From Naegleria gruberi (Eukaryota), in NCBI GenBank assembly GCA_000004985.1, contig GG738849.1: 64,000 nucleotides of DNA; one strand, 5' to 3'. This document shows, piece after piece, positions 29,144 through 63,919 of the stretch. Below the pieces are notes generated by a model. That model saw nothing but the letters and a program-made list of their open reading frames with translations. It ran no database searches and was not told where the DNA came from. The translations under genes and the position numbers were made by a program. The stretch's first letter is position 1, and every line of letters starts with the position of its first letter.

Positions 29144-30817
29144 TTATTGAAGCTCGTCAAAGGAGGCTAATAAAGTCCAAATGACTTCACTATTTGCCCA
29201 TAAACCTTGTCTCTTTAAATAATCTGAAACAAGGAGACGTTGCTCGTTGGTGTTTGGATCATGCTTCACTTTGGATTTTTCAATGTAATTGGAGAAGGAG
29301 GCATGTGTCTGAGTCCACAATTCTTCAATCTTGTGGGAAATTTCAGTGTTATCAGAATTAAGATAAAGATGTCTATTTTTGAGGATAAAGTAGAAGAGGG
29401 CATTATCATTGATAAAGCTGATATACATTTGATGAGAGTTTGGAGAAATCTTTCGTTTCTGGTTTTCAACCATTTTGATTTGAATTGTTGATTTGTCTTG
29501 AATAGATCCATATGATTCATTGAACAGGAAACCAGATTCTTCATCATAATAGTCATGGTGCATTTCAATAAGTAATTGAGGAATGAGGTGATTATGTTTC
29601 TTAGAGGAAATAAGGGCCATTACAAGCCAACAATCTTGCCAAAGGAATTTCTTGGTGTGAGGAGTTAACTTATCATCAAAATAAGTAATCCTTTCAGAGG
29701 TTTCTACTTTGAACTTTTTCAAAATTACCTCCAAAACTTGTTCAACAACTTGTTCTAATCTTTGTGTTAATGCTTGGTCAACTGAGTTATTGGAAAGTGT
29801 TTTTTTGAGAGCCAAATAAAGAAGTGAATGATCCACCAATCTGTAGTGTTGTAAATTCACTTGTTGCCCTTTTGGCAAACTCTTTGTGGCCCACATTTGC
29901 TTTTCAGAATCATAAAAATCATCAATTATTTTCTTGCAAAACTTGTTCAAATCCAAATCCTCTGGTTTATACTCTTGTCCTATTGTTGCAAAGAATAAAA
30001 GTCCCATGGTGTTACTAATGAGTTTCTTTTCTTCCTTATTGGTTTTCCAAAATTCTCTTCGTTCCTCCATAATTGACTCAGTTGAACTTTGCCAAATACC
30101 AGATGCTTGTCTCTGATAGAATAATCCATGACTAGCATCAAAATTCAACTTGTAAACTGCTTGTGAGAGTTTGGATAACTTTTCCTTTACATTATTTTCC
30201 TTACAAAACTCGTTAAATTCTGCATTCTTCAATAGATAGAACATATTCAATCCCATCACAAAATTATGCCAACATCCCTCACTATACAATCCACTCTCTG
30301 CATGATACATATTTTCAATGAGATGATAAGGAATGTGTTTATGTTCCTGTTCTGTATTCCAAACTCCTCTAAATAATTGTTCAACCATCTTGTTTGATGT
30401 ATTCGAATATTCCGATGATAATGATGCCATTCTATTATTCGTATGATGATAAAATCTCCTATTATTATTACTCTCTTCAAGTCCCTTCAAATGATCCAAC
30501 AAAAGGCTCCTTCTAGAATGGATGTTTTTTTTCTTTTTGTAATTAGTAAACAACAAGCAAGAAGAGGATGTTGCACAAGCTGCCGATTGGGTGATGATGG
30601 TACCTTCAGATAATGATTGAATTGAGGAAAATTGCAAATGTGCTTTCTCACAAATATCCGATCTTGTTGATGATTTTTTAATATTAATATCGGAATTAAC
30701 TGCACAATAATTATGTATTGATTTGCATATTGTCAATGATGATAGAATTGAATGTTCAATTCCGTTGGTTGAAATGAACAAGTTGTTATGTAATAGTCTA
30801 TTACCAAGCTTGAACAT
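29144..30817 (-). CDS. hypothetical protein of 557 aa
   Basis: Single ORF with good coding composition. The N-terminal 140 aa are S/N-rich, followed by a conserved-looking alpha-helical domain (GCWHNFVMGLNMFYLL..., WLVMALISSKKHN...). I cannot assign a family. Confidence 0.5.
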   Translation of the reverse strand: MFKLGNRLLHNNLFISTNGIEHSILSSLTICKSIHNYCAVNSDINIKKSSTRSDICEKAHLQFSSIQSLSEGTIITQSAACATSSSCLLFTNYKKKKNIHSRRSLLLDHLKGLEESNNNRRFYHHTNNRMASLSSEYSNTSNKMVEQLFRGVWNTEQEHKHIPYHLIENMYHAESGLYSEGCWHNFVMGLNMFYLLKNAEFNEFCKENNVKEKLSKLSQAVYKLNFDASHGLFYQRQASGIWQSSTESIMEERREFWKTNKEEKKLISNTMGLLFFATIGQEYKPEDLDLNKFCKKIIDDFYDSEKQMWATKSLPKGQQVNLQHYRLVDHSLLYLALKKTLSNNSVDQALTQRLEQVVEQVLEVILKKFKVETSERITYFDDKLTPHTKKFLWQDCWLVMALISSKKHNHLIPQLLIEMHHDYYDEESGFLFNESYGSIQDKSTIQIKMVENQKRKISPNSHQMYISFINDNALFYFILKNRHLYLNSDNTEISHKIEELWTQTHASFSNYIEKSKVKHDPNTNEQRLLVSDYLKRQGLWANSEVIWTLLASFDELQ

Positions 30818-31749
30818 TTTTTGTTTTCGAATTTTTACAATAACAATCTATATTTGGTTTAAATTGTATTGTAATTGAATCAAACAAAAAGATGTGCAAT
30901 TTTTTCAGATTTGGAAAGATGTGGACAAAAGATAGTCTGTATTTGAATCTTGAACATTGAGAATAAAAATCACAATTATTTCAATTTCATTATCTGTTAT
31001 CTCTTTCAATAATTCATTCTGAATACTTGAAATCATTTGAATGAATTTATTTGATTCATTCCCTTCCTAGTATTCATACAACAATGGATAATAGTAATGA
31101 ATCAAACTAATTCATTCATATTTTCAGTGAAATACATTTGTATTGGTTGTTGAATTGAGTGAATTTTCAACCTCAACAAATCCAAAGTGTTACTCACACC
31201 AAAATGAGTGAACAAAACCCTCAAATGGTTTTATCAGAAACTCCAAGTCATCTCCAACTCCTTTCATTCGTTAAAGGCAAGCATTATCATCTTATCCTTG
31301 GATTTATAAACAAATGAGGAAGCAAACCTTCTTTTTGTCACTTTCCCCCACTCGTCTAAATATGTCACTATAAACTCAATTGATTTTTTATTACGCCTCC
31401 CAACAGTTTGGGAATCGCTTACTGTGAAAGTTGAATGGATATCATCTTGATTGTGTGTTGCCTATTGACAGAAGTACTGATTGCAAATAAGATTGTATTC
31501 TCAATGGTTTGTAACAGAGAGTATTGTCAATTTATACAATATTATACAATCGTTCTAATATCTCAGACTTTCAATTCAATTGCCAACTTCATGGATACTA
31601 ATTGATATTGTTGCAAATTGAAAGATTGCCGAATAACACTTTTTTTACGTTAAAGAATTGTTGTCTAATTTTCAAACATAGAAATTTTCTTTATGGAAAT
31701 TATCTTTCGTATCTAGATATTATTTGGCATTATGTGATCGTTTACCACA

Positions 31750-32250
31750 TTTAACAAAGAGGAGGAATAAATACACTCCCTCTTATCGTATTATCAGAAA
31801 GGTTCCAGATTCTCAGATTCGAAACCAGCGAACATCCAAACGCAGACTGGGGTGTTGCCTACTCTGGCAACTCTCAGTAACCTTATTAGCTCTTTTCTCA
31901 TCACCATTATTTGTAACTGCACTTGAGGATAACACACAAAATGAACACCTTTAGAAGAGAGAAGAATAGTTTGAAACATTCCACTGCAACTGCCGACTCA
32001 TCCATGAAGAGCATCTTTTGGTCGGTTACTCTATTCAGTGAAGCATTGCACAATGTCATCTCAATTCGTGTATTCGTGTGTTTAGTGTTTGTGGAGGAGG
32101 TGGTTGTGTAGAGTAAATTGCTATTGTCATCAGTGGTGCAATCAGAGCAGCTCTTCTTAATCAGTCCAATCAAGGAAAACGGTTGGAGACCAACAATTGC
32201 TTGTTGTCCATGGGTCGATTCAAAAATCATATTGTTCTTAGTTTCAGGTT
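31750..32250. other. GC-elevated segment of about 500 bp without a significant ORF, inside a 1.8-kb gene-free interval; candidate non-coding RNA or unannotated 5' exons
   Basis: The composition differs from the flanking AT-rich spacer (for example cgaaaccagcgaacatccaaacgcagactggggtgttgcctactctggcaactctcag). The only ORFs are 60-107 codons, overlapping on both strands. No snRNA, SRP or 5S signature was recognised. Confidence 0.2.
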
Positions 32251-32591
32251 TTTCAGTTATTCAACTTTGATATTTGTTTCACAGAGTTTTTCTGCTAGAA
32301 TGTTGTGAAGACTTTTTTTTTATGAAATGTTGATTTTTAAAACACAAAATGTTCAGTTTGAAATGGGTTGAACGAGTGTATCTTCGTATGCAAACAAAAC
32401 GAATGTTCGTAGGTAACAGAGCTAATTTGGTGGTCCATTAGGGTATTCAGAATAATCGATAATGAAAAACTGCTGTTTTCAAGAATCATGACACAATAGT
32501 CATATGAGTAAGGCTGCAAAAGTCGTTTGGAATATGAAATGGAGTTATTATCTCATCTCTACCAATAGACATTTTACAAATAAGGAGCTTG

Positions 32592-32885
32592 TTAAAAACA
32601 ATTATTTAGGAATATCACTTCCCATGTAAAGACTGTTTGGGAATAGTGGATGATTGTTTTTCCACCAGTGAGGAAAACAAGGCCTCTCGGCGCTTTGTGA
32701 AGGCGACTATAGATCCTCTTCGTGATCAAAGGATTTAATAATCCACGAGATACAGAATTGGTCACATCCCTGTATAGAGAAATTTTTTTACAACCATTGC
32801 AATAATAACTACGGTTTTTATCCTCTCCTCCACAACACATGATCGGTGCTAGAGGCAGATCTTTCATTTGATTGAAGGTTTTCAA
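32592..32885 (-). CDS. small Cys-containing basic protein (97 aa), possibly an organellar ribosomal-protein-like ORF
   Basis: Isolated 97-codon ORF containing MCCGGEDKNRSYYCNGCKK and basic patches. Composition is coding-like, but no family is recognised and it could be spurious. Confidence 0.25.
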   Translation of the reverse strand: MKTFNQMKDLPLAPIMCCGGEDKNRSYYCNGCKKISLYRDVTNSVSRGLLNPLITKRIYSRLHKAPRGLVFLTGGKTIIHYSQTVFTWEVIFLNNCF

Positions 32886-33033
32886 ATCTTAATTTGCTTA
32901 TTACAAGTTGTTGAATAGGAAGGAGGAATTGGTGCAACAAGTGAACACTAAAATTTAAAGCCTTGCTTACTTGATAGCTTTGAGATTTTGGCGCTTAAAA
33001 AAAAATAGCTTTAGACACTGTACTTTGAGTAAA

Positions 33034-53749: not shown

Positions 53750-55129
53750 TTATTTTCTCTCTAATAGAGATGCAATACTAGGTAGGAAACGAATCGAATT
53801 CTCTCCCTCACTTTCATCCTCCGACAAATGTTGCGCATCGTAACCTCTAGTTCTGAAACTCTTTTCTGTATTGGCCATTATTGAAAACCCTGCCCTCTGC
53901 TCTAAACCAAATGGTTGGTCATTGCCACTATTTGGAAACAGATAACAATTTGAAGAAGGACCACTATTTCCATAATTGAATGGTTGGTGTTTTGATTGGT
54001 TTGGATTCAGGTCGTCATGCATTACACAAATATCGCCAGTCAATGACATGGATGGTAGTGAGTGTTTTGGTGAGGGAAATGATGGTGATTGTGAAACTGT
54101 AGTTGAGGGAGTTTGGATGGATTTTCTATTGTAATGTTGGTGCTCTGAATCTTGGTGTTGACTGGATGGATTGCAACAACAGGACTGCTGTTTGGTTAGA
54201 TTGGTAAGAGATTCTTCATTGATTCGCTCATGATCTCTTTTACCAGTGACTAGATACAGAATTGAGGAGGAAATATCCTCGAAAAAGGAAGAAGATAATC
54301 CACTACTGCAATTGCTTCCATTGTTTAAATGTGGAGAAATTAACGAATCGTGATTATTTTGTGTGTTTGAATCTGTGTTACCCATTGTGGTTATTGAAAG
54401 TAAGAGTGGAATCTGATTGGTTTGATTTCGGTTTGTGAGTTGTTGTGGAATCTTGAACGAATTGGTCGACGAATTGGATAGAACTGGAGAGGAAGTGAAT
54501 GGAGATGGAGTGGACAATGGTTGTTGTTCACTTGTAACCATCATTCGATTAGGATTCATTATTGAATGTTGATTATTTAGAGTTGGAGAATTGCCACTTA
54601 ATGGTAGTTGTTCCCTGTTTTGATTTGAATGAGGAGGTGGTAATGAATCAGTCGAATGCTTTCGTTTCTTCTTCTTACTTTCGAATGAGTTATGAGTCAA
54701 TGGTGAGTGTGAAGAATAATCACTCTGTAAAAGTAAGTTGGAAATATCACACGAGCCATCGAATGGATTTTCTCTCTTCTTATTTGTTTTCTTATTCGAT
54801 TCAAAGACTAAAAGTGAGCAGTGTGGAATTTGTTGTTGCTTGTTTTCCACAACAACCAACTGCTTTTGATTGCAATTAGATCTTGTTTGTTTCTTCTTCA
54901 TGCTGTTATCTGGCATTGGTTTAATTGTATTTCTTTTTTGTTGAAGATTAAAGCAAAGTTGCTTTGAGTGGTACAATTTCAACCAAATAACTTGGCGTAC
55001 ATAACAATTCTGGTGTGCACGATATTGGTTATGTTTCCTTTCAACGATCAATTGGACATTCGTACTGTATGGTTTTATATTACGATACGATAGTTCATTC
55101 ACTTTATGGATTATACACGTATTGTCCAA
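53750..55129 (-). CDS. low-complexity S/N/Q/T-rich hypothetical nuclear-type protein (459 aa)
   Basis: Single ORF. Contains a basic patch (SKKKKRKHS) and homopolymeric/low-complexity tracts. No domain recognised. Confidence 0.4.
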   Translation of the reverse strand: MDNTCIIHKVNELSYRNIKPYSTNVQLIVERKHNQYRAHQNCYVRQVIWLKLYHSKQLCFNLQQKRNTIKPMPDNSMKKKQTRSNCNQKQLVVVENKQQQIPHCSLLVFESNKKTNKKRENPFDGSCDISNLLLQSDYSSHSPLTHNSFESKKKKRKHSTDSLPPPHSNQNREQLPLSGNSPTLNNQHSIMNPNRMMVTSEQQPLSTPSPFTSSPVLSNSSTNSFKIPQQLTNRNQTNQIPLLLSITTMGNTDSNTQNNHDSLISPHLNNGSNCSSGLSSSFFEDISSSILYLVTGKRDHERINEESLTNLTKQQSCCCNPSSQHQDSEHQHYNRKSIQTPSTTVSQSPSFPSPKHSLPSMSLTGDICVMHDDLNPNQSKHQPFNYGNSGPSSNCYLFPNSGNDQPFGLEQRAGFSIMANTEKSFRTRGYDAQHLSEDESEGENSIRFLPSIASLLERK

Positions 55130-56024: not shown

Positions 56025-56991
56025 ATGAAAAGAGAAGGAGAAACAGCAATGGCCGATGATGGAGAGTTAGATTATTCTGAACTTGTTGATGAGATTGGAA
56101 TTTCCTCCGATTATGATGAAAATTATAAATCATTGAAGGATTTTTGGGATGTTGCAGAGAAGGATTTTTATCAAAAATCAACAGATTATTGGAAGGAAAA
56201 GGTTACGAATGATATGAATGGAATGTTGGGAGGTTTTACTCATGTTCACGATAGGGATATTAAAGAGAGTTCGCTTTTATTGAGTAAAGTTTTGGAGGAT
56301 GTTACACCAGGTAGAGAAGGAGAAAAGTCTTTCATGTATTGTTTAGAATGCGGAAGGTATGTTTTATTTGTATTTGATTAGAAAAATAATTGTTAATGAT
56401 GATGACGATATTATTATTACTTTGGATGTAACAAAATAATATTGTTAATTAATATTTAATAATGTTAAAATAGTGGAAATGGACGTGTTACTAAAAATTT
56501 ACTGTCTAAACATTTCGATTATATTGATTGTGAGGATGTTAATGAGGAATTTTTGATTAAAGCCAAGGAAGAATGCAACAAGATCAAGGAGACTTATGCT
56601 TGTGCATTGCATGAATTGTCAAGGGTCATTCCAGAAGAATGTAAAGGAAAATATCATGTAGGTTTATTCATTTTGAAAATTTATTGACATTGTACAGTGT
56701 ATTTGGGTTCAATGGTGTGCCTGTTTCTTGACTGATAGAGATTTTGTCAAATTTTTGGAATATTGTTATGAATTACTAGTTGATGGAGGAGTTTTGTGCT
56801 TCAAGGAGAATATTTCAGGAAAGGGTTTTGTTGTTGATTCAGATGATGGCTCAATAACTCGTAGTAATAATCACTATTTGTTTTTATTTTCACAAGTTCA
56901 ATCCAAATTTGAAGTTATTGAAAATACCAAACAGAAAAATTGGGAAAAGGGTTTATTTGCTCTCAGAATGTACTGTTTAAAGAAGAAGTAA
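56025..56991 (+). CDS. NTMT1: N-terminal Xaa-Pro-Lys protein alpha-N-methyltransferase (NTMT1/METTL11A family); 3 exons
   Basis: Exons lie at 56025..56356, 56474..56657 and 56698..56991. Introns are 117 nt (GTATGT...TAG) and 40 nt (GTAGGT...CAG). The encoded FYQKSTDYWKEKVTNDMNGMLGGFTHV, CLECG-SGNGRVTKNLL and CIWVQWCACFLTDRDFVKFLEYCYELLVDGGVLCFKENI align block by block with human NTMT1 ([82 protein letters not shown]). Confidence 0.85.
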
Positions 56992-56992
56992 A

Positions 56993-59159
56993 CTAAACCA
57001 AATGGACCAATAAAACATCACCATGCTCAAATTGTAATTGAGGTGTTGTGTATGGGTCAATTGGTGTCAATACTCCATTTCTCTTCAACTTGATCTGCGT
57101 TATGGATTTTAACATGTTATTATTCCACAACTTTTTCTCATTGACCATCTTTTCACTCAATTGTTCACACAAGAATGAGAATGTGCAACATTTGTGAATT
57201 GAAAACTTGGAAGTCATGAGTGAATTTTCATAATGTGAATAATCTGCCACTGTTAAAATCTTCGTCTCATCAAAGAAAATGACAAACATGGCAGCTTGAG
57301 CAGTTCCATTTGGTGAAAATTGAGGAGTCACTACTGGATATTGTTGATGTGAATTGGATGATGGTAAGGAGAAGAGTTGAGAAAGGAATGGAGCTGAGGA
57401 TGGAGACGTGTTATAGAATTGAGCAGCAGCTGCACTTGTTGATAAATTGGATGTCATGATATTTGGAGTTGTGGTGTTATTATTACTAGTAATATTACTA
57501 GTAATATTGGAATTGGAATTATTGGATTGATCTAGAATACAAAATGGCTGAACCATTTCATTGTTACTATTCGAAGCAGATGCTAACTGTACATTTGGAA
57601 TGCCCATCAATGGATGGTGATCTTGTTGTTGATTGTGTCCATTACTGGTTGTGGCTTTCATTCTCTTCATGGCCAATTCATTAATATCCAAAGAATTTAA
57701 CATTTTGGTGGTTGTGTCTTGTCCTAAAACCATATCCACAAATGATTTGGAAGGAGAGGATGCTGTAGAACTCACTGTTGCTGTATTTAAATTATTCGTA
57801 TTGTTATTATTAAATTGATTGTAAAGTATCATGTTGGAATATTGAGGAGTTGAAGAATTGTGGATATTATTATTATTTGGAATGGTATTGGCCATTTCAT
57901 TCAGTAATGATTGAAGAGAGTAAGCAGTTGTTGGTTGGTGTGGAATTTGTGGAAGAAGGGTTTCGACTTGATTATTCGATTTCACATAATTATTATCCGT
58001 GGGAATGCTTTCCAATAAATTCAAGAATTCATCATCTTGATTTGAAAGTGCATTCCAGGGAGTCAACAAATCATTTTGTGAATTCTGTAATTGATCAACT
58101 GGATTATTTTGGTCAACTGTGGTAGTTGTGTTTGTGGTCGTCACCAACGAAGTCAATGAACGTTTTCTCTTCTTTGATGATGAAACCTCTTGATCAGAAG
58201 AGGAACAGTTAGATGATCTTTTCAGAGAATTATTAGATGAAGTTTCCTCTTCATCAATTCGAAGGGTTTCGTCCTCCTCTTTCGAAGAAGATGCAGATGA
58301 TGAAGAAGCAAGGGATAATTTCCTTGAATTTCGTTTTCTCTTTGGTTTTACCTCTGAATTTTCCGTTTGATTATTTTCATTATCACCACCACATCCATTT
58401 GAATGGTGACTATTACCATTTTGATTCTTATTAAATCGATACTATATATACATGTGTTGGTAGATGATAATGATTATCCAAGTAGTGGCCACCACATACA
58501 CATCATGGTAATCAACATGTGTGTTGTTGATGATAAAGACATTGAGGGTTCAACACAGCATGTTGTGTGTCGAAACGCAAATGCAGCATGGAAGATAGCA
58601 CACATTGTAGGCCATGATTGAGAATGATTTTTCGCGCGCAAATGGAAAGAAGGACAATTTACAATTCCGAATCCAATATTGTTATTAATGGTAATGAGGC
58701 AATCGTTCAGCACACACATTCACAATATAACAACAACAGCAGCAGGAGGCAAAATGTTGTTGATGATAATGTTTCATCAATATATTCATTAAAATCTATC
58801 GAGAGAGAATATTCTTACTTACCTGCTTGTTATAACAAGAGTTGCAACAGACGCCAATTGGCACCTCAAAGTTGAAGGCTGCTACATACTGCATTCATAC
58901 ACATGTGATGATGATGATGATGAATATTAATGATGAAGATGATGATGAAGAAGATTGTGTGAAAATGGAAAGAAGAAGGGTTTAGGATAATTCAAAGGTA
59001 GGTGAAAATACTTACAGCATCTCTGTTGCTTGCATTGATATTATACTTTTTAGAGTAGTGGAGGTTGTATCGCTTACAACATACACAAAGATTGCTTCCA
59101 TCCTCGTTGGGAATATTCTTGTGTTTGGTCTTGTCGCCAATGATTGCCATAGAGTCCAT
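56993..59159 (-). CDS. N/S/T/Q-rich nuclear-type protein with a basic NLS-like patch; the model is extended upstream to two short Cys-rich 5' exons (putative zinc-binding N-terminus); 3 exons
   Basis: The track ORF 56993..58156 starts on TTG. The frame stays open upstream to 58441 (YRFNKNQNGNSHHSNGCGGDNENNQTENSEVKPKRKRNSRKLSLASSSS...), where a TAG and an ATATATAG acceptor occur. Candidate 5' exons lie at 58823..58888 (YVAAFNFEVPIGVCCNSCYNKQ, GTAAGT donor) and 59016..59159 (ATG-initiated MDSMAIIGDKTKHKNIPNEDGSNLCVCCKRYNLHYSKKYNINASNRDA, GTAAGT donor). Both close in phase 0. The intervening introns are 127 nt and about 375 nt; the latter is long for this genome. Confidence 0.45.
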
Positions 59160-59409
59160 TAGTTTGTTTAGAATAAAGTTATTCTATGTTGAAGAGAGAG
59201 GGTTGGTGGTAGATGAACAAAGATTAATTGTGTGTCTTTGTGTAAAGTTGTTGTATATTGATCTGGAATGATCGCAAAGAGTAACGACTTGGTTGACCAG
59301 CAACAAATTAGACGAAATGCTGGTTGTGTCAATAAATATTTGCGTGATGCAAAGATTCTCGGTAGAAGTAGGTTAAATAGAATTTGATTGGTTTTTTTTT
59401 GAGCAAATT

Positions 59410-60252
59410 GTTTCGAATAGTTTGGGGAAATAAACCTGTTGCGAAACACAAAATTGGTATTTGGCACTAGTGGAGCGAGGAGTGTGGTTTTGGTTGGGTA
59501 TAACCTTTCTTACAAACCAAACACTTATTCTTTTTTTTTGATGTTGGCTTGGAAGAAATCAGACGAAAGCCTTGTGAAATATGTTTCGAATAGAGGGATG
59601 CATAGACTCCTTGTGTGGCCTTTCAAAAATTCCCATTCAGGTATGTCAATACTTTTGGAAGATAGCAGAAGAAGTCACCACCATGAATGGTGAACAATAC
59701 ACAAACTAAATTTTGCACAACAATTATTCGAAACAAGCAAAGAAACATAACCTTGTGATTTCTACCACACCTTCCAGCCAACATTAACTGTGCGTGGTGA
59801 AAAGATTTCTTCATCTTCTACCTCCACTTTTAGAATCCAGCCCTCCGACTATTGACATAAATTTTTATCGGAAAACCCACCGATTGTTTTTGGGAATGAT
59901 TTTTCAGGGGATTTTCAAATGATTCCGAAAACAGGTTTTTTGTTTGAGTTGAACAAAGTTTTCTTCAGCAGCAGAATTTGAGTTTACAAATGAATATGAG
60001 ATATGGAATTTTGCAATTTTACAAGTTTATGAGGTGTAGTATGGATGGTGGAAAGTGTGTTGTGAAAATTGCTGTATTTACAGTTGTAAATGGGTAGAGT
60101 TTCGAATTGAAAATTGGTTTCGTTTTGGTGTTTGTAATAATGGGTCTTTCTGTGAGGAGTTGCAACAGGAGAATAGAATTATGCGGTGCCAATCACGATT
60201 TGTCTCTCGATTATTTAGAATGTAGTTGCAATTCATTCACAGTTTCGAATTG
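59410..60252. repeat. cluster of five copies of an 11-mer GTTTCGAAT(A/T)G motif (palindromic TTCGAA core) in a gene-poor region
   Basis: Copies at about 59410..59420 (gtttcgaatag), 59583..59593 (gtttcgaatag), 59724..59733 (reverse orientation, tattcgaaac), 60099..60109 and 60242..60252. The last two sit in an identical 15-mer agtttcgaattgaaa. One more reverse copy (attcgaaac) lies at about 31817..31825 in the other desert. Confidence 0.4.
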
Positions 60253-61224
60253 AAAGCATGCAACAGATAACACAATTTGTAGACAATACCATTTAAGAAA
60301 CAAATGATTATTCCTCTTGAAACCTTCTCTGAAATTTTCAACTAACGCGTAAAAACATTTCCCCAAAGTTTGTGAACGTCATATGCCAAGGTCACATCAC
60401 AATTTTCCTTCACTACCATTTTGGTATTTTTGCAACTATCAATTTTCTTTGGATGATCGAATCCCTGCCATACACAGCAAATTGGAGAAAATTCATTTTC
60501 GCTGGAATAACTTGTGCAAATTTAGTATCAGATAGAGTTAGTTAACCTTGAGTCAATTAGGGCACTTTCTAATAAAATTAGAGGAAACCTATATTATAGT
60601 AGATGAGGAGAATAAAACATTTACTTTTGGGTGAATTGATATTAAAAACTATCAACTGGCTTGTTAAGGGGTTTATCCACTACTCATCACTCGAGAGAGA
60701 TTTTGAATTTAGTGTACACGAACCATATGTTTGTTATGAACAAGGAAATGATTTTCATTTATCACAGCACTGTAGTTTTACTGTAGTGGAGAGAGTTGTT
60801 GGGTGAGGTTGGTATTAGAGTTGTTGGGTTTTTGGTTGATAGGATTGGTTGACCAATCTGTATTGTGTTGGAAATTGTGAAAAAAAATGATGAGAATGAA
60901 GGGGAAGAAATGAATCGAGTTTGAAGAAGGACATGTTGGCTTGCTAATCGGAAGAGTTTAGGTAAGATGTCTTGATGAGAATTTATTAGAAAGTTCAACC
61001 TAATGATGATTACCATTTTTATTGGATATTTCCATCATTAATTTTCATAATGAAAATTTAAATGATTCGATCATCGGATTTTGGAACATGTACTCGGTTC
61101 TTGTGTATTAAAAAGTACAGCTCAAATATTTCTCATAGCTCTAGATTCGTATTGAATTTTTGAATCTCACAAATATGAGGAAGGACAATTATTCGAAAGA
61201 AAACTATTCAGAAATAAGAAACTT

Positions 61225-61878
61225 TCAAACTTGTTGCTCATCTTCCACAACAATTTCAACACATGTGTATGATTCATCCACATTTGACTTATCCTTCGCC
61301 TTGAAATCTCTCATTTCTGAAATCATTTCATTAATGGATCGATTGACTGGAGCTCCAGTTTCTAATTCTTGACTTATTGGACCACTTTCGACACTAACAG
61401 CAGCTCTTGGAGATTCCTTTTTCTGAGACGAAACACTCATCCTTCTAAACATAGTTTGAACTTGATAAAGTGGCGAATAAATTGCTAATAGAAAGCAAAC
61501 TAAACAAACATATCCAATATTATAAAACCCATGAAAAATCACCGTGCAGTAGGGCCACAACAATGAAAATGGAATGAACACAAACCCACAAAACTGAATA
61601 ATCATTGAAATTGTAATTCCATATTGTAAAAGAGTTGCATTTCGAAGTGCCTTCTTTTTCATTTGTAAACTCGATTCCAAACTCTTATCAGTTGCATTCT
61701 GATTGTTGAGAGTTTTTCTGAGGGAGTCTACTCGATCTCTGGCGATTTTGAGATTTTTCCTTAATAATCGTCCGGAATAGTTTAGGATAATGGAAAAGAT
61801 GGTTATGGAAATGAGGAAAAGGAGTGAGGCGAAGACCATGAGGCCTATTAAGAGATTGGATAGAAGGGATTCGTCCAC
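61225..61878 (-). CDS. small multi-pass membrane protein (217 aa)
   Basis: Single ORF with about 4 hydrophobic segments (LLIGLMVFASLLFLISITIFSII, ITISMIIQFCGFVFIPFSLLW, YVCLVCFLLAIYSPLY). The C-terminal tail is hydrophilic. Confidence 0.5.
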   Translation of the reverse strand: MDESLLSNLLIGLMVFASLLFLISITIFSIILNYSGRLLRKNLKIARDRVDSLRKTLNNQNATDKSLESSLQMKKKALRNATLLQYGITISMIIQFCGFVFIPFSLLWPYCTVIFHGFYNIGYVCLVCFLLAIYSPLYQVQTMFRRMSVSSQKKESPRAAVSVESGPISQELETGAPVNRSINEMISEMRDFKAKDKSNVDESYTCVEIVVEDEQQV

Positions 61879-62084
61879 TAGTTTGAAAGCTGAGGCGAAA
61901 CCGAATAAGAGACATAAACTAGCTGAAAGAAATACAAAGAGGGAAATGGCTATAAGAAATATAATGACCGTGATTCTAATTCTTTTGAAAGTCTTTTTTG
62001 TAACATTTCCTGTTGATTCGGAAGTTTTAAAACTGTTTCGAATAAATTGTTTATTGTAAAATTACAATTCATTGACTGAAAAAC

Positions 62085-62550
62085 TTACAAAACCATTGAA
62101 ATATGCGCCATTATCAGAATAGACAGTAAAACTCCCAAATTATTACAAACTCTACCAATTCCCTTCATTATCGAAGAAGAAACCAACACGGCATTCGAAT
62201 CACTTATCAAATACAATAATTCATTTGCCTCCCTCACCCACATGTTCAAATTTACAATCGCCAATAAGACAATCAATAATCCGAATAGTATATGTTGATT
62301 CCTCGCCAAATATTTATATTGAATTGCATAATTTATCACAACAATTAAGAAGAGGAAAGCAAACACCAATACGAACGGTGCACTCATTCCGAGGGTGATT
62401 TGTCTGAAGAGTGAGAATTGTCCAATATTACTAGCAGCACCTGCTGATGAAGTTACATTACTGTTGGTTGTGTTGCTAAGTAAAGATGTCGTTATGTGTT
62501 GCAGGAGAAGCAAGTTTCGCGTTGTTGATAAGAGATGAAGTTGTTGTTCC
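62085..62550 (-). CDS. small multi-pass membrane protein (about 155 aa), a possible paralog of the 61225..61878 gene
   Basis: The track ORF 62085..62810 runs 5' into the tRNA-Thr gene, so it is trimmed to the first ATG (MEQQLHLLSTTRN..., start at about 62550). Hydrophobic segments FVLVFAFLFLIVVINYAIQY and ILFGLLIVLLAIVNLNMW echo the IILNYSGR / FLISITIF pattern of the neighbouring protein. Confidence 0.45.
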
Positions 62551-62723
62551 ATTGTTTTACAGATAAAAGCGAAATGAGTTATCTCAACCAAAAAGCAGAA
62601 CTTTCTATCATGGGTGAGTTTCATATGAATGTTGTTAGCATCGTATCTCTCCCGAAATGATATTATACGAATGAGTAGAATGGGTGGCAAGATTTCGAAT
62701 CTGTGGCTTAACAGCCAAAAGAT

Positions 62724-62797
62724 TGCCTCCCTTGGGAATCGAACCCAAGACCTCTGTCTTACTAGGACAGCGCTACTGCCAACTGAGCTAGGAAGGC
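62724..62797 (-). tRNA. tRNA-Thr (anticodon AGU)
   Basis: The minus strand reads GCCTTCC-TA-GCTCAGTTGGCAGTAGC-G-CTGTC-CTAGTAA-GACAG-AGGTC-TTGGG-TTCGATT-CCCAA-GGGAGGC-A, 74 nt. It has a 7-bp acceptor stem with one U-G pair, an anticodon loop CTAGTAA with AGT at positions 34-36, a T-arm GGTTCGATTCC (B box) and the A-box-like TAGCTCAGTTGG. Confidence 0.85.
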
Positions 62798-62890
62798 TTA
62801 CGGTAAGCATATAAAACGCCTTAATATCAATCTAATAAGAGCTATTGTTCTAATAATAGTCTGTGGTTTACAGATAACACAAAAGAAAAA

Positions 62891-63919
62891 ATGTCTTCAT
62901 TTGTTCCATCAACCAAGTTGGCAAGAGAAAGAGCTTTGGATAAATCAACATTGCCTCCGAAGAAAATTAAGATTTATTATGATGAGGATGCATTCGTTCC
63001 ATTAGGAAAACAAAAGAAAGGATCATGGTTAGTTGAACATAAGGAAGTCGGGCAAACCTTTCCATCCTATGAAAGAGGTTCATTCAATAGGATCAAGTAG
63101 GTAGAATATTGATAATCTCAATTTATTAACTTTAATCTATTTTGAATCAATTATTATGAAATATTTCTATTGATTCATTTAAATCATTTAATTTCAATAT
63201 TCAATTATTCCTGCAGAGGATCAAAACAAAATGTAATTTATATTTGCTGTTTGGAGGAATTTCCAGAAGATCAACCTACCAGATATCCATCCATGACCAT
63301 TCTAGTTGAATTTCTTAAGAAATTCTATTGGGGAGTTGAAGTTAAGCTATTCAAAGATCCAACAGGTTACAAAACATTTCCAACCCGACTTAATGACGGA
63401 GTTGAACAATACAAAGCCCCTGACATTCTCAAATATCTCAAAAAGGTCATTCCCAAGGATGCTTACTGTATCATTGCAGTAACAATGGTAGATCTGTATC
63501 CAAGGGATGAGTGGAATTTTGTCTTTGGTTTTGCCTCTTTAGAGGAGAGAGTAGGAGTTTTTTCATTTGCAAGATATCATCCGGATTTCTATGGTGAGGA
63601 CCATTCACAATCTCCCTCAGACATTGAGAGAAATATATTGAGGAGGAGTTGCAAAGTGGCTTCTCATGAGATTGGACACATGTTTGGCTTTAAGCACTGC
63701 ATCTATTACAAGTGCGCAATGAATGGCTCAAATCACATGGAAGAGAGTGATGAACGTCCATTAGAGTTGTGTCCAGTAGAATTGAGGAAATTGCAACACT
63801 GTATTGGTTTTGATGAGAAGGAAAGATATCAGCAATTGTTAACTTTCTTCAAAAACCATCCTCAAATGTTCTCTTCAGAAATTCAATGGTTCACGGAGCG
63901 ATTGGAGTACATTAACTAA
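62891..63919 (+). CDS. AMZ: archaemetzincin (AMZ1/AMZ2-type zinc metalloprotease); 2 exons
   Basis: Exon 1 is 62891..63096 and exon 2 is 63217..63919, separated by a 120-nt intron (GTAGGT...TGCAG). Exon 2 contains HEIGHMFGFKHCIYYKCAMNGSNHMEESDERPLELCPVELRKL, the archaemetzincin signature HExxHxxGxxHCxxxxCxMx(n)CPxC. Confidence 0.8.

What the first reader, a model, noticed from the sequence alone, without database searches (positions are those of the whole stretch)
59160..61224. Roughly 2-kb gene-poor stretch with a recurrent palindromic GTTTCGAAT(T/A)G motif upstream of a putative Cys-rich regulator gene
In a genome where spacers are usually under 500 bp, this 2-kb interval has no convincing ORF. 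It carries five copies of an 11-mer with a TTCGAA core within 850 bp, two of them inside an identical 15-mer. All lie 250-1,100 bp upstream, in transcriptional sense, of the putative ATG at 59159. That gene, if my multi-exon model is right, begins with a Cys-rich motif (CVCC...VCCNSC) followed by a KRKR NLS and poly-N/S/T, which is a transcription-factor-like layout. A sixth copy occurs in the other desert near 31.8 kb. This looks like a cis-regulatory module or a short dispersed repeat family.
Basis: seen in the sequence. Interest (0 to 1): 0.5.

Follow-up and report, generated by a model that had tools for sequence, protein, structure and literature searches.

The report
Clustered GTTTCGAAT motif in Naegleria spacer
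A 2-kb non-coding spacer in the amoeba Naegleria gruberi carries a far-from-chance cluster of one exact 9-base word upstream of a gene for a lineage-specific zinc-binding protein. It is most likely a set of binding sites for one regulatory protein, but nothing here shows that it is bound or that it regulates anything.

Summary
The window is Naegleria gruberi. The interval 59160-61224 has no ORF with family, codon-usage, Rfam or cross-species support. It carries five copies of the exact 9-mer GTTTCGAAT within 843 bp; four match the full 11-mer.

An unbiased scan of all 9-mers ranks this cluster first in the window. Its score is log10 p = -11.1. The best of 150 Markov simulations reached -9.3, and the next-best word in 135 kb of real Naegleria and Willaertia DNA reached -7.75. 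The flanks of the copies are unrelated, so this is a sharp-edged short element, not a decayed repeat.

The downstream gene model is exactly the annotated XP_002681760.1. Its Cys-rich N-terminus is a C4 zinc module found only in heteroloboseans. The predicted fold is closest to insect ZAD dimerisation domains, not to any known DNA-binding domain.

The motif is absent upstream of the orthologues in N. lovaniensis, a second Naegleria species and Willaertia. It is at background frequency elsewhere in the window.

Best reading (about 0.4): a lineage-specific cluster of binding sites for one factor. Rivals are transposon or duplication relics, an unannotated transcript, B-box-like TFIIIC sites and chance. 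The genome-wide test could not be run.

The parts
59160..61224 (.). 2,065-bp non-coding spacer between the stop of the upstream membrane-protein gene (61225) and the ATG of NAEGRDRAFT_56891 (59159). Both genes are on the minus strand.
   Evidence: No ORF has Pfam support, codon-usage support or cross-species support. No Rfam family matches. GC is 0.349.
59410..59420 (+). Motif copy 1, GTTTCGAATAG, 251 bp upstream of the ATG.
59583..59593 (+). Motif copy 2, GTTTCGAATAG.
59724..59734 (-). Motif copy 3, GTTTCGAATAA on the minus strand. The 9-mer is exact; the last base of the 11-mer differs.
60098..60112 (+). Motif copy 4 within the 15-mer AGTTTCGAATTGAAA.
60241..60255 (+). Motif copy 5 within the identical 15-mer AGTTTCGAATTGAAA.
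62035..62045 (+). Motif copy 6, GTTTCGAATAA. It lies in the 56-nt intron of my model of the upstream membrane-protein gene, abutting the 3' splice site (minus strand ...TTATTCGAAACAG|). On its own it is not significant (about 0.1 expected in the 6 kb of flanks).
56993..59159 (-). Gene NAEGRDRAFT_56891 (XP_002681760.1, 552 aa), exons 59159-59016, 58888-58823 and 58441-56993. It has an N-terminal C4 zinc module (ZAD-like fold), two KRKR clusters, low-complexity N/S/T tracts and a conserved C-terminal domain of about 100 aa.
61225..62552 (-). Upstream multi-pass membrane-protein gene (my model: exons 62552-62089 and 62032-61225; 423 aa; no family). Its 3' end bounds the spacer.
   Evidence: The exact model is not in the protein collection. 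It has no counterpart in the N. lovaniensis or Willaertia loci (the other two loci were missing from that run).
62724..62797 (-). tRNA-Thr(AGU). Its own B box reads GGGTTCGATTCCC and serves as the comparator for the B-box hypothesis.

Best explanation
The five exact GTTTCGAAT words at 59.41-60.25 kb are most likely repeated recognition sites for one sequence-specific DNA-binding protein. The factor may be a dimer, given the palindromic TTCGAA core with asymmetric flanks. Together the sites would form a homotypic binding-site cluster, that is, a promoter-proximal cis-regulatory module. The cluster sits in the unusually long 5' intergenic region of NAEGRDRAFT_56891, a heterolobosean-specific protein with an N-terminal C4 zinc module. 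Several sites spaced 142-374 bp apart would raise local occupancy of the factor and give this gene a regulated, rather than constitutive, output.

Shown: the cluster exists and is far beyond chance. Its copies have sharp 9-bp edges and unrelated flanks. The DNA around them is not detectably coding, not a known RNA and not a repeat. The gene downstream is real and conserved.

Inferred: that a protein binds these words, that the target is the downstream gene, and that the effect is transcriptional. The identity of the factor is unknown.
For: The cluster is the top-ranked 9-mer cluster in an unbiased scan of the window. Its score of log10 p = -11.1 was reached by none of 150 Markov simulations, whose minimum was -9.3. 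It is 3.3 log units beyond any other word in 135 kb of real Naegleria and Willaertia DNA.

Six copies are identical at all nine positions, while the flanking columns are at random-level agreement. No 40-nt window in 59160-62100 reaches 27/40 identity in either orientation. This pattern suggests selection on, or recognition of, a short word rather than decay of duplicated DNA.

Only the specific word is enriched. TTCGAA runs at 2.9 per kb in the spacer against 0.32 per kb elsewhere, whereas the degenerate TTYRAA is not enriched (5.8 against 4.7 per kb).

The position, 251-1093 bp upstream of the ATG of a validated gene, suits a promoter or upstream module. No coding, Rfam or transposon-protein signal offers another explanation.

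The orthologue's upstream region in the N. lovaniensis / L004 clade also looks regulatory. It has blocks as conserved as coding sequence (81% and 76% identity) and a local TGACCA cluster in both species.
Against: There is no functional data of any kind. The motif is absent from the 1.2-1.3 kb upstream of the orthologues in N. lovaniensis and the L004 species, and from the Willaertia homologue. There is therefore no phylogenetic footprint, and the N. gruberi spacer does not align with those regions at all.

None of the roughly 25 other genes in the window has the word upstream, so it is not a common promoter element. No known factor with this specificity could be named. The transcription start site is unknown. 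The Markov null ignores real mutational processes that create short local repeats.
Confidence: 0.4

Rival explanations
1. The copies are relics of mobile or duplicated DNA. They could be terminal inverted repeats or footprints of small non-autonomous DNA transposons (MITE-like), or the product of short local duplications. In either case they would have no regulatory role.
For: A 15-nt inverted repeat (59408-59422 and 59722-59736, 14 of 15 complementary) encloses 329 bp and is flanked on both sides by GCAAA, like a TIR pair with a 5-bp target-site duplication. The copies fall into two subtypes: TGTTTCGAATA[G/A] four times and AGTTTCGAATTGAAA twice. The locus sits at a microsynteny breakpoint, and the spacer, membrane-protein gene and tRNA have no counterpart in N. 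lovaniensis.
Against: The TIR similarity is almost entirely the motif itself. A third copy sits inside the putative element. No other pair has matching flanks. Nothing inside the spacer resembles any other part of the window or of the related loci. No transposase remnant is detectable. Scattered duplications of 11-15 nt at 140-370 bp spacing are not a usual mutational product.
Confidence: 0.2
2. The spacer holds one or more unannotated transcripts, such as small or long non-coding RNAs or a tiny multi-exon gene. The word would then be their promoter or an internal element rather than a regulator of the downstream gene.
For: Spacer GC (0.349) equals that of coding DNA (0.347) and exceeds that of the other long-ORF-free gaps (0.26-0.34). 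Five of the six copies are on the strand opposite to both flanking genes. Two 120-nt windows fold better than shuffles (z = -5.0 at 59160-59279 and z = -4.5 at 60000-60119, both minus strand), though with weak energies.
Against: There is no Rfam match, even at E up to 10 apart from noise. There is no common sequence downstream of the copies and no conserved ORF. Mean fold z is only -0.36. The orientation bias of 5 in 6 is not significant.
Confidence: 0.12
3. The cluster is a chance or compositional accident with no biological meaning.
For: The cruder statistic, any 9-mer five or more times in 1 kb, is reached in about 1% of simulated windows. A scan reads many windows, so some outliers are expected. 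The sixth copy at 62035 is unremarkable on its own.
Against: When the rarity of the word is taken into account, none of 150 simulations comes within 1.8 log units of the observed score. No other word in 135 kb of real DNA comes within 3.3 log units. The word contains a CpG in a CpG-depleted genome (observed/expected about 0.5-0.6), and the copies also share extended 11-mers and 15-mers.
Confidence: 0.1
4. The words are B-box-like sites bound by TFIIIC without Pol III. They would be 'extra TFIIIC' or boundary elements of the kind seen in yeasts, and would be related to the tRNA-Thr gene 2.5-3.3 kb away.
For: The motif shares eight of eleven positions with the B box GGTTCGAANCC, including the TTCGAA core. 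A tRNA gene lies nearby, and it has another TTCGAA 25-30 nt past its 3' end. Clusters of B boxes serve as boundaries in fission yeast (established knowledge).
Against: The motif has T where the invariant G53 should be, and A/T then G/A where the CC of positions 61-62 should be. The window's own tRNA B box is canonical (GGGTTCGATTCCC). ARAGORN and Rfam find no tRNA-like gene in the spacer.
Confidence: 0.05
5. The words are CHR-type elements bound by a LIN54/TSO1-like CXC-domain protein of a DREAM/MuvB-like complex. That would make the gene cell-cycle regulated.
For: TTCGAA fits the biochemically defined LIN54 consensus TTYRAA (PMC4974476).
Against: The same paper reports lower affinity when both central positions are G:C, as in TTCGAA. 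TTYRAA as a class is not enriched in the spacer. LIN54 specificity does not explain the conserved flanks G-T...T. CHR elements sit at the transcription start site, usually as a single copy, not spread over 0.85 kb.
Confidence: 0.04

Closest known systems
Homotypic clusters of transcription-factor binding sites (promoter or enhancer modules of animals, plants and yeasts)
   Same: Several copies of one short word lie within about 1 kb of non-coding DNA upstream of a gene. The motif edges are sharp, the flanks are unrelated and both orientations occur.
   Different: No factor, occupancy or expression data exist. The cluster is not conserved in the nearest sequenced relatives. Cis-regulatory elements of Naegleria are essentially undescribed: three full-text searches returned nothing on Naegleria cis-elements.
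CHR element / LIN54 (MuvB-DREAM) site, TTYRAA
   Same: The TTCGAA core satisfies TTYRAA.
   Different: TTCGAA is the weaker variant. The conserved 9-mer flanks are unexplained. There are multiple dispersed copies rather than one site at the transcription start. TTYRAA is not enriched overall.
tRNA B box and extra-TFIIIC (ETC) or boundary B-box clusters
   Same: The TTCGAA core is shared. The copies are clustered in intergenic DNA, and a tRNA gene lies within about 3 kb.
   Different: The invariant B-box positions (G53 and C61-C62) are not matched.
MITE terminal inverted repeats
   Same: One pair of copies forms a 15-nt inverted repeat with identical 5-bp flanks, enclosing 329 bp.
   Different: No family of related elements is visible, and the internal sequence is unique. 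The other copies are unpaired.
ZAD (zinc-finger-associated domain) of insect C2H2 transcription factors, compared with the N-terminal domain of the downstream gene's product
   Different: There is no sequence match to any Pfam family, zf-AD included, when each member is scanned separately at E up to 10. No C2H2 finger array follows. The lineage is heterolobosean, not arthropod. The model is of moderate confidence only (mean pLDDT 77).

Membership tests
Homotypic TF-binding-site cluster (cis-regulatory module) | Several copies of one short motif within about 1 kb of non-coding DNA, beyond chance | tested here: met
   Five exact 9-mers lie in 843 bp. The score is log10 p = -11.1, against a simulated minimum of -9.3.
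Homotypic TF-binding-site cluster (cis-regulatory module) | Motif or cluster retained upstream of orthologous genes | tested here: not met
   No match within one mismatch of the 11-mer lies upstream of the orthologues in L001 or L004/L005, or of the homologue in L003. These species are too distant for their non-coding DNA to align with N. gruberi.
Homotypic TF-binding-site cluster (cis-regulatory module) | Occupancy by a factor and an effect on expression | not testable with these tools
   This needs ATAC, DNase, ChIP, DAP-seq or reporter assays.
Genome-wide promoter motif | Enrichment upstream of many genes | tested here: inconclusive
   Within this window the 9-mer occurs only once outside 59.4-62.05 kb, which is the background level. 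The rest of the N. gruberi genome could not be reached.
Dispersed or tandem repeat family | Copies share sequence beyond the short core | tested here: not met
   Flank columns agree at random level. No 40-nt window reaches 27/40 identity. There are no blastn matches in the window or in L001.
MITE | Terminal inverted repeats plus a target-site duplication | tested here: inconclusive
   One pair (59408-59422 and 59722-59736, 14/15 complementary) has GCAAA on both sides. The inverted repeat is essentially the motif itself.
MITE | Many copies with related internal sequence | tested here: not met
   No related sequence is found in the 64-kb window or the related loci. This could not be tested genome-wide.
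tRNA B box / extra-TFIIIC site | GGTTCGANNCC with invariant G53, C56 and C61 | tested here: not met
   The motif has T at position 53 and A/T at position 61. The window's own tRNA-Thr B box is canonical, GGGTTCGATTCCC.
CHR element (LIN54 site) | TTYRAA hexamer | tested here: met
   TTCGAA fits TTYRAA, but it is the lower-affinity variant according to PMC4974476.
CHR element (LIN54 site) | Located at the transcription start site of a cell-cycle gene | not testable with these tools
   The transcription start site and the expression pattern are unknown. The copies spread over 0.85 kb, which is atypical for a CHR.
Known RNA families (Rfam 15) | Covariance-model match at or above the gathering score | tested here: not met
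   Only the tRNA-Thr passes in the window. Hits in the spacer have E of at least 0.23 and fall far below their thresholds.
ZAD / zf-AD domain (product of the downstream gene) | C4 zinc treble-clef fold with a C-terminal helix | tested here: met
   [not shown]
ZAD / zf-AD domain (product of the downstream gene) | Sequence match to the Pfam family and a following C2H2 finger array | tested here: not met
   There is no Pfam hit for the whole protein or for the separately scanned domain copies. The PDB profile search finds nothing relevant.

The most novel reading that the evidence does not exclude
The orthologous gene may carry a homotypic motif cluster 0.25-1.1 kb upstream in each Naegleria lineage, but built from a different word in each: GTTTCGAAT in N. 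gruberi, and TGACCA-based words in N. lovaniensis and the L004 species. That would be conserved regulatory architecture with complete turnover of the bound motif. In that case GTTTCGAAT would be the first cis-regulatory word defined in Heterolobosea. It might even be read by the ZAD-like zinc protein encoded next to it, which would be autoregulation.
Probability: 0.1. Interest if true: 0.55.

Novelty: new member of a known kind. Interest (0 to 1): 0.3.

Why it matters
Almost nothing is known about how Naegleria controls transcription. Three full-text searches returned nothing on cis-regulatory motifs in the genus. A short word that is this strongly clustered next to a conserved, lineage-specific gene is a concrete, cheap-to-test candidate for a first regulatory element. 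Possible tests are a genome-wide count, ATAC-seq, DAP-seq with nuclear extract, and a reporter. N. gruberi is the laboratory model for the pathogen N. fowleri. If the word proves to be at background frequency genome-wide, this is simply a local curiosity.

Tried and rejected
1. Known RNA gene. Rfam at gathering score over the window and at E up to 10 over 58.8-61.5 kb gave only the tRNA-Thr and noise. A sliding fold z-score scan was unremarkable.

2. Missed protein gene. The ten longest stop-to-stop frames have no Pfam family at E up to 1 apart from noise. The codon-usage scan is within the off-frame range. tblastx against the N. lovaniensis locus found nothing.

3. Extended repeat. The repeat finder, blastn with word size 7 and an ungapped 40-nt diagonal scan all showed nothing beyond the short word.

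4. Orthologous footprint. Loci were fetched from N. lovaniensis (L001), an unnamed Naegleria species (L004, L005) and Willaertia magna (L003). Only exons 1 and 2 align with N. gruberi, and the motif is absent there.

5. Close-relative footprint. The ENA contig L002, about 97% identical, ends at window position 59097, short of the spacer.

6. More N. gruberi DNA. Exact-protein look-ups for three window proteins, including the annotated P0004 and P0134, were 'not on record'. The genome-wide enrichment test could therefore not be done.

7. Metagenome scan for motif pairs, GTTTCGAATWG-N(132-162)-GTTTCGAATWG. It returned 46 loci. None showed similarity to the window, and many are GC-rich or satellite repeats. 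This was a dead end.

8. tRNA-linked external B box. The related loci contain no tRNA genes, so this could not be tested.

9. First structure model from three sequences. It was too poor to use (pLDDT 47). A six-sequence alignment gave pLDDT 77.

10. Cadherin hits in the representative search. They match only the FxFEVP stretch and are spurious.

11. Literature. No paper in the library mentions the gene identifiers or links TTCGAA with Naegleria biology.
Full report
**Organism and local map**

The window is Naegleria gruberi. My two-exon model of the archaemetzincin (peptidase M54) gene at 62891-63919 is 100% identical to an NCBI 'predicted protein [Naegleria gruberi]' on an 850-kb contig. G+C is 34%.

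Both genes flanking the finding are on the minus strand:
- Upstream (my model): a multi-pass membrane-protein gene with exons 62552-62089 and 62032-61225. It has no Pfam family.
- Downstream: the Cys-rich gene, starting at ATG 59159.
- A tRNA-Thr(AGU) lies at 62724-62797, also on the minus strand.

The interval 59160-61224 is therefore 3' flank of one gene plus 5' flank of the next.

**The observation**

GTTTCGAATWG occurs exactly four times, at 59410, 59583, 60099 and 60242, all on the plus strand. Shuffles predict 0.05. All five share the exact 9-mer GTTTCGAAT. They span 843 bp and lie 251-1093 bp upstream of the ATG. The 15-mer AGTTTCGAATTGAAA is present twice.

Some details need correcting:
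- The 9-mer occurs seven times in the 64-kb window. Six of these are at 59.4-62.05 kb.
It lies inside the 56-nt intron of my membrane-protein gene model, directly against the 3' splice site.
- The '31.8 kb' copy shares only the 9-mer.
- Only TTCGAA is palindromic. The word as a whole is asymmetric.

**Is it more than chance?**

I scanned every non-low-complexity 9-mer for local clustering, which corrects for having picked the word after seeing it. GTTTCGAAT is the top cluster in the window.
- The crude statistic, any word five or more times in 1 kb, is reached in 2 of 200 second-order Markov simulations. Those cases involve common AT-rich words.
- When each word is scored against its own expected frequency, the observed cluster scores log10 p = -11.1. 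In 150 simulations the median was -6.5 and the extreme -9.3.
- Across 135 kb of real Naegleria and Willaertia DNA, the next-best word scores -7.75.

The cluster is real. The null model does not include real mutational processes, so 'not chance' is not the same as 'functional'.

**Anatomy of the copies**

Aligned on the word, the six neighbouring copies are identical at all nine positions, and the columns outside agree at random level. There are two small subtypes: TGTTTCGAATA[G/A] four times and AGTTTCGAATTGAAA twice. An ungapped scan of 59160-62100 in both orientations finds no 40-nt window with 27 or more matches; Markov-simulated sequences occasionally reach 27-28. The repeat finder and blastn find nothing else shared within the spacer, the window or the N. 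lovaniensis locus. This is a short, sharp-edged element, not the conserved heart of a decayed repeat.

Only the specific word is enriched. TTCGAA runs at 2.9 per kb in the spacer against 0.32 per kb elsewhere, whereas the degenerate TTYRAA runs at 5.8 against 4.7 per kb.

**Is the spacer really empty?**

- The longest stop-to-stop frame is 113 codons. The ten longest frames have no Pfam match beyond noise.
- Codon-usage scores are within the range of off-frame sequence.
- Rfam finds nothing.
- Fold z-scores average -0.36. Two windows fold better than shuffles but with weak energies.
- There is no tblastx or blastn similarity to the orthologous loci.
- UniProt numbers the Cys-rich gene D2V292 and the M54 gene D2V294. 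If UniProt numbering follows gene order, this suggests one annotated gene between them, which would be the membrane-protein gene. This is an inference, not a check of the record.
- The spacer's G+C (0.349) equals that of coding DNA, and is higher than in the other gaps without long ORFs. I cannot explain this.

**The downstream gene**

My three-exon model (59159-59016, 58888-58823, 58441-56993) is identical to XP_002681760.1 / NAEGRDRAFT_56891, 552 aa.

The N-terminal 75 residues are 84% identical in N. lovaniensis and 74% in Willaertia magna. More distant homologues, including one with two tandem copies of the domain, define an invariant C-x2-C...C-x2-C-Y pattern. No Pfam family matches, and no relevant PDB sequence does.

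From established knowledge, ZADs are zinc-dependent dimerisation modules of insect C2H2 factors, not DNA-binding domains. No C2H2 array follows here. The protein has two KRKR clusters and long N/S/T tracts. 'Regulator' is possible but not shown.

**Comparative evidence**

In N. lovaniensis (L001) and an unnamed Naegleria species (L004, L005), the M54 gene, the Cys-rich gene and the N-terminal methyltransferase gene are adjacent and all in one orientation. In N. gruberi the Cys-rich gene is inverted relative to both neighbours. The membrane-protein gene has no counterpart in L001 or L003, and the four related loci contain no tRNA genes. The spacer therefore sits at a rearrangement breakpoint.

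The 1.2-1.3 kb upstream of the orthologues contains no copy of the word. Only exons 1 and 2 align with N. gruberi. The distance is too great for a footprint, and the only close relative available, an ENA contig about 97% identical, stops short of the spacer.

Within the lovaniensis/L004 pair, two upstream blocks are as conserved as coding sequence (81% and 76% identity). Between the alignable blocks, both species carry a local cluster of TGACCA: four copies in L001 and five in L004. This is the top hexamer cluster in L004, but its score is near noise. It hints that this gene has an elaborate upstream region across the genus. The evidence is weak.

**Explanations**

The best-supported reading is a homotypic cluster of binding sites for one sequence-specific factor, acting on the downstream gene (about 0.4). 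It accounts for the exact word, the sharp edges, the unrelated flanks, both orientations, the position and the lack of any other signal.

The rivals, with my estimates, are:
- *Transposon or duplication relics (0.2).* One pair of copies forms a 15-nt inverted repeat enclosing 329 bp, with GCAAA on both sides. The repeat is essentially the word itself. A third copy lies inside it, and no related element is visible.
- *An unannotated transcript (0.12).*
- *Chance (0.1).*
- *B-box-like TFIIIC sites (0.05).* The invariant G53 and C61-C62 positions are not matched, while the local tRNA has a canonical B box.
- *LIN54-type CHR elements (0.04).* TTCGAA fits TTYRAA but is the weaker variant, and the class is not enriched.

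**What could not be done**

The decisive test is the genome-wide frequency and position of the word in N. gruberi. It was out of reach, because the look-ups that would have fetched more N. gruberi DNA found nothing on record. A metagenome scan for motif pairs returned 46 unrelated loci. No paper in the library describes Naegleria cis-elements or this gene.

**Verdict**

The interpretation as a cis-regulatory module is the most economical but is untested. The 'dispersed repeat' alternative is not supported by the sequence available here. The finding is of modest interest: a concrete candidate regulatory word in an organism whose transcriptional control is uncharted, but currently a single locus without conservation or functional data.

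Noticed in passing
window 56025-63919 compared with L001 7548-13825: Microsynteny breakpoint. In N. lovaniensis and the L004 species, M54, the Cys-rich gene and the N-terminal methyltransferase gene are tandem on one strand. In N. gruberi the Cys-rich gene is inverted relative to both. A membrane-protein gene and a tRNA-Thr lie between it and M54 in N. gruberi but not in the relatives' loci.
   Followed up: partly
[not shown]
   Followed up: partly
L001 9170-9276 and L004 5949-6133: There are four and five copies of TGACCA, about 0.75-0.9 kb upstream of the orthologous ATG. They lie in a stretch that does not align between two conserved blocks. This is the top hexamer cluster in L004, but its score (-6.4) is near the noise level.
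   Followed up: partly
L001 9323-9510 and 9640-9847; L004 6161-6345 and 6465-6673: These upstream non-coding blocks are 81% and 76% identical between the two species, as conserved as the coding sequence. The second block contains GTAAGC...TACTAAC...AG, a possible 5'-UTR intron. Short blocks inside introns 1 and 2 are 88-89% identical.
   Followed up: no
window 62033-62088 (minus strand): The 56-nt intron in my model of the membrane-protein gene ends ...TTATTCGAAACAG|, so the sixth motif copy overlaps its 3' splice-site region.
   Followed up: partly
window 59408-59422 and 59722-59736: A 15-nt inverted repeat (14 of 15 complementary) is flanked on both outer sides by GCAAA and encloses 329 bp. 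This is MITE-like anatomy, but it is built almost entirely from the motif itself.
   Followed up: partly
window 59571, 59608, 59752 (+): CCTTGTG occurs three times within 190 bp around motif copies 2 and 3, and nowhere else in the 64-kb window.
   Followed up: no
window 62690-62724 (minus strand): The tRNA-Thr(AGU) gene has GATTCGAAATC 25-30 nt downstream of its 3' end, after a T run. This recalls the external B boxes of Dictyostelium tRNA genes. It is a single case, and no other tRNA genes were available to compare.
   Followed up: partly
window 56989-56995: The stop codons of the convergent methyltransferase gene (+) and the Cys-rich gene (-) are separated by a single base, so their 3' UTRs must overlap.
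   Followed up: no
window 30848-32958: This is a second stretch of about 2.1 kb without a long ORF. It lies between the start of a minus-strand ORF (ATG at 30817) and a plus-strand ORF beginning at 32971. G+C is 0.337. It holds the isolated GTTTCGAAT copy at 31817-31825 and a GAATGAA cluster of five copies at 31013-31263.
   Followed up: no
window 54542-54759: CATTCGA occurs four times within 220 bp inside a long minus-strand ORF (53750-55129). It probably reflects a repeated peptide motif.
   Followed up: no
L006 12652-14430 (metagenome contig Ga0302250_1000379): An unrelated satellite with a period of about 231 bp carries GTTTCGAATWG in each unit. It was picked up by the motif-pair scan and shows no similarity to the window.
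   Followed up: no
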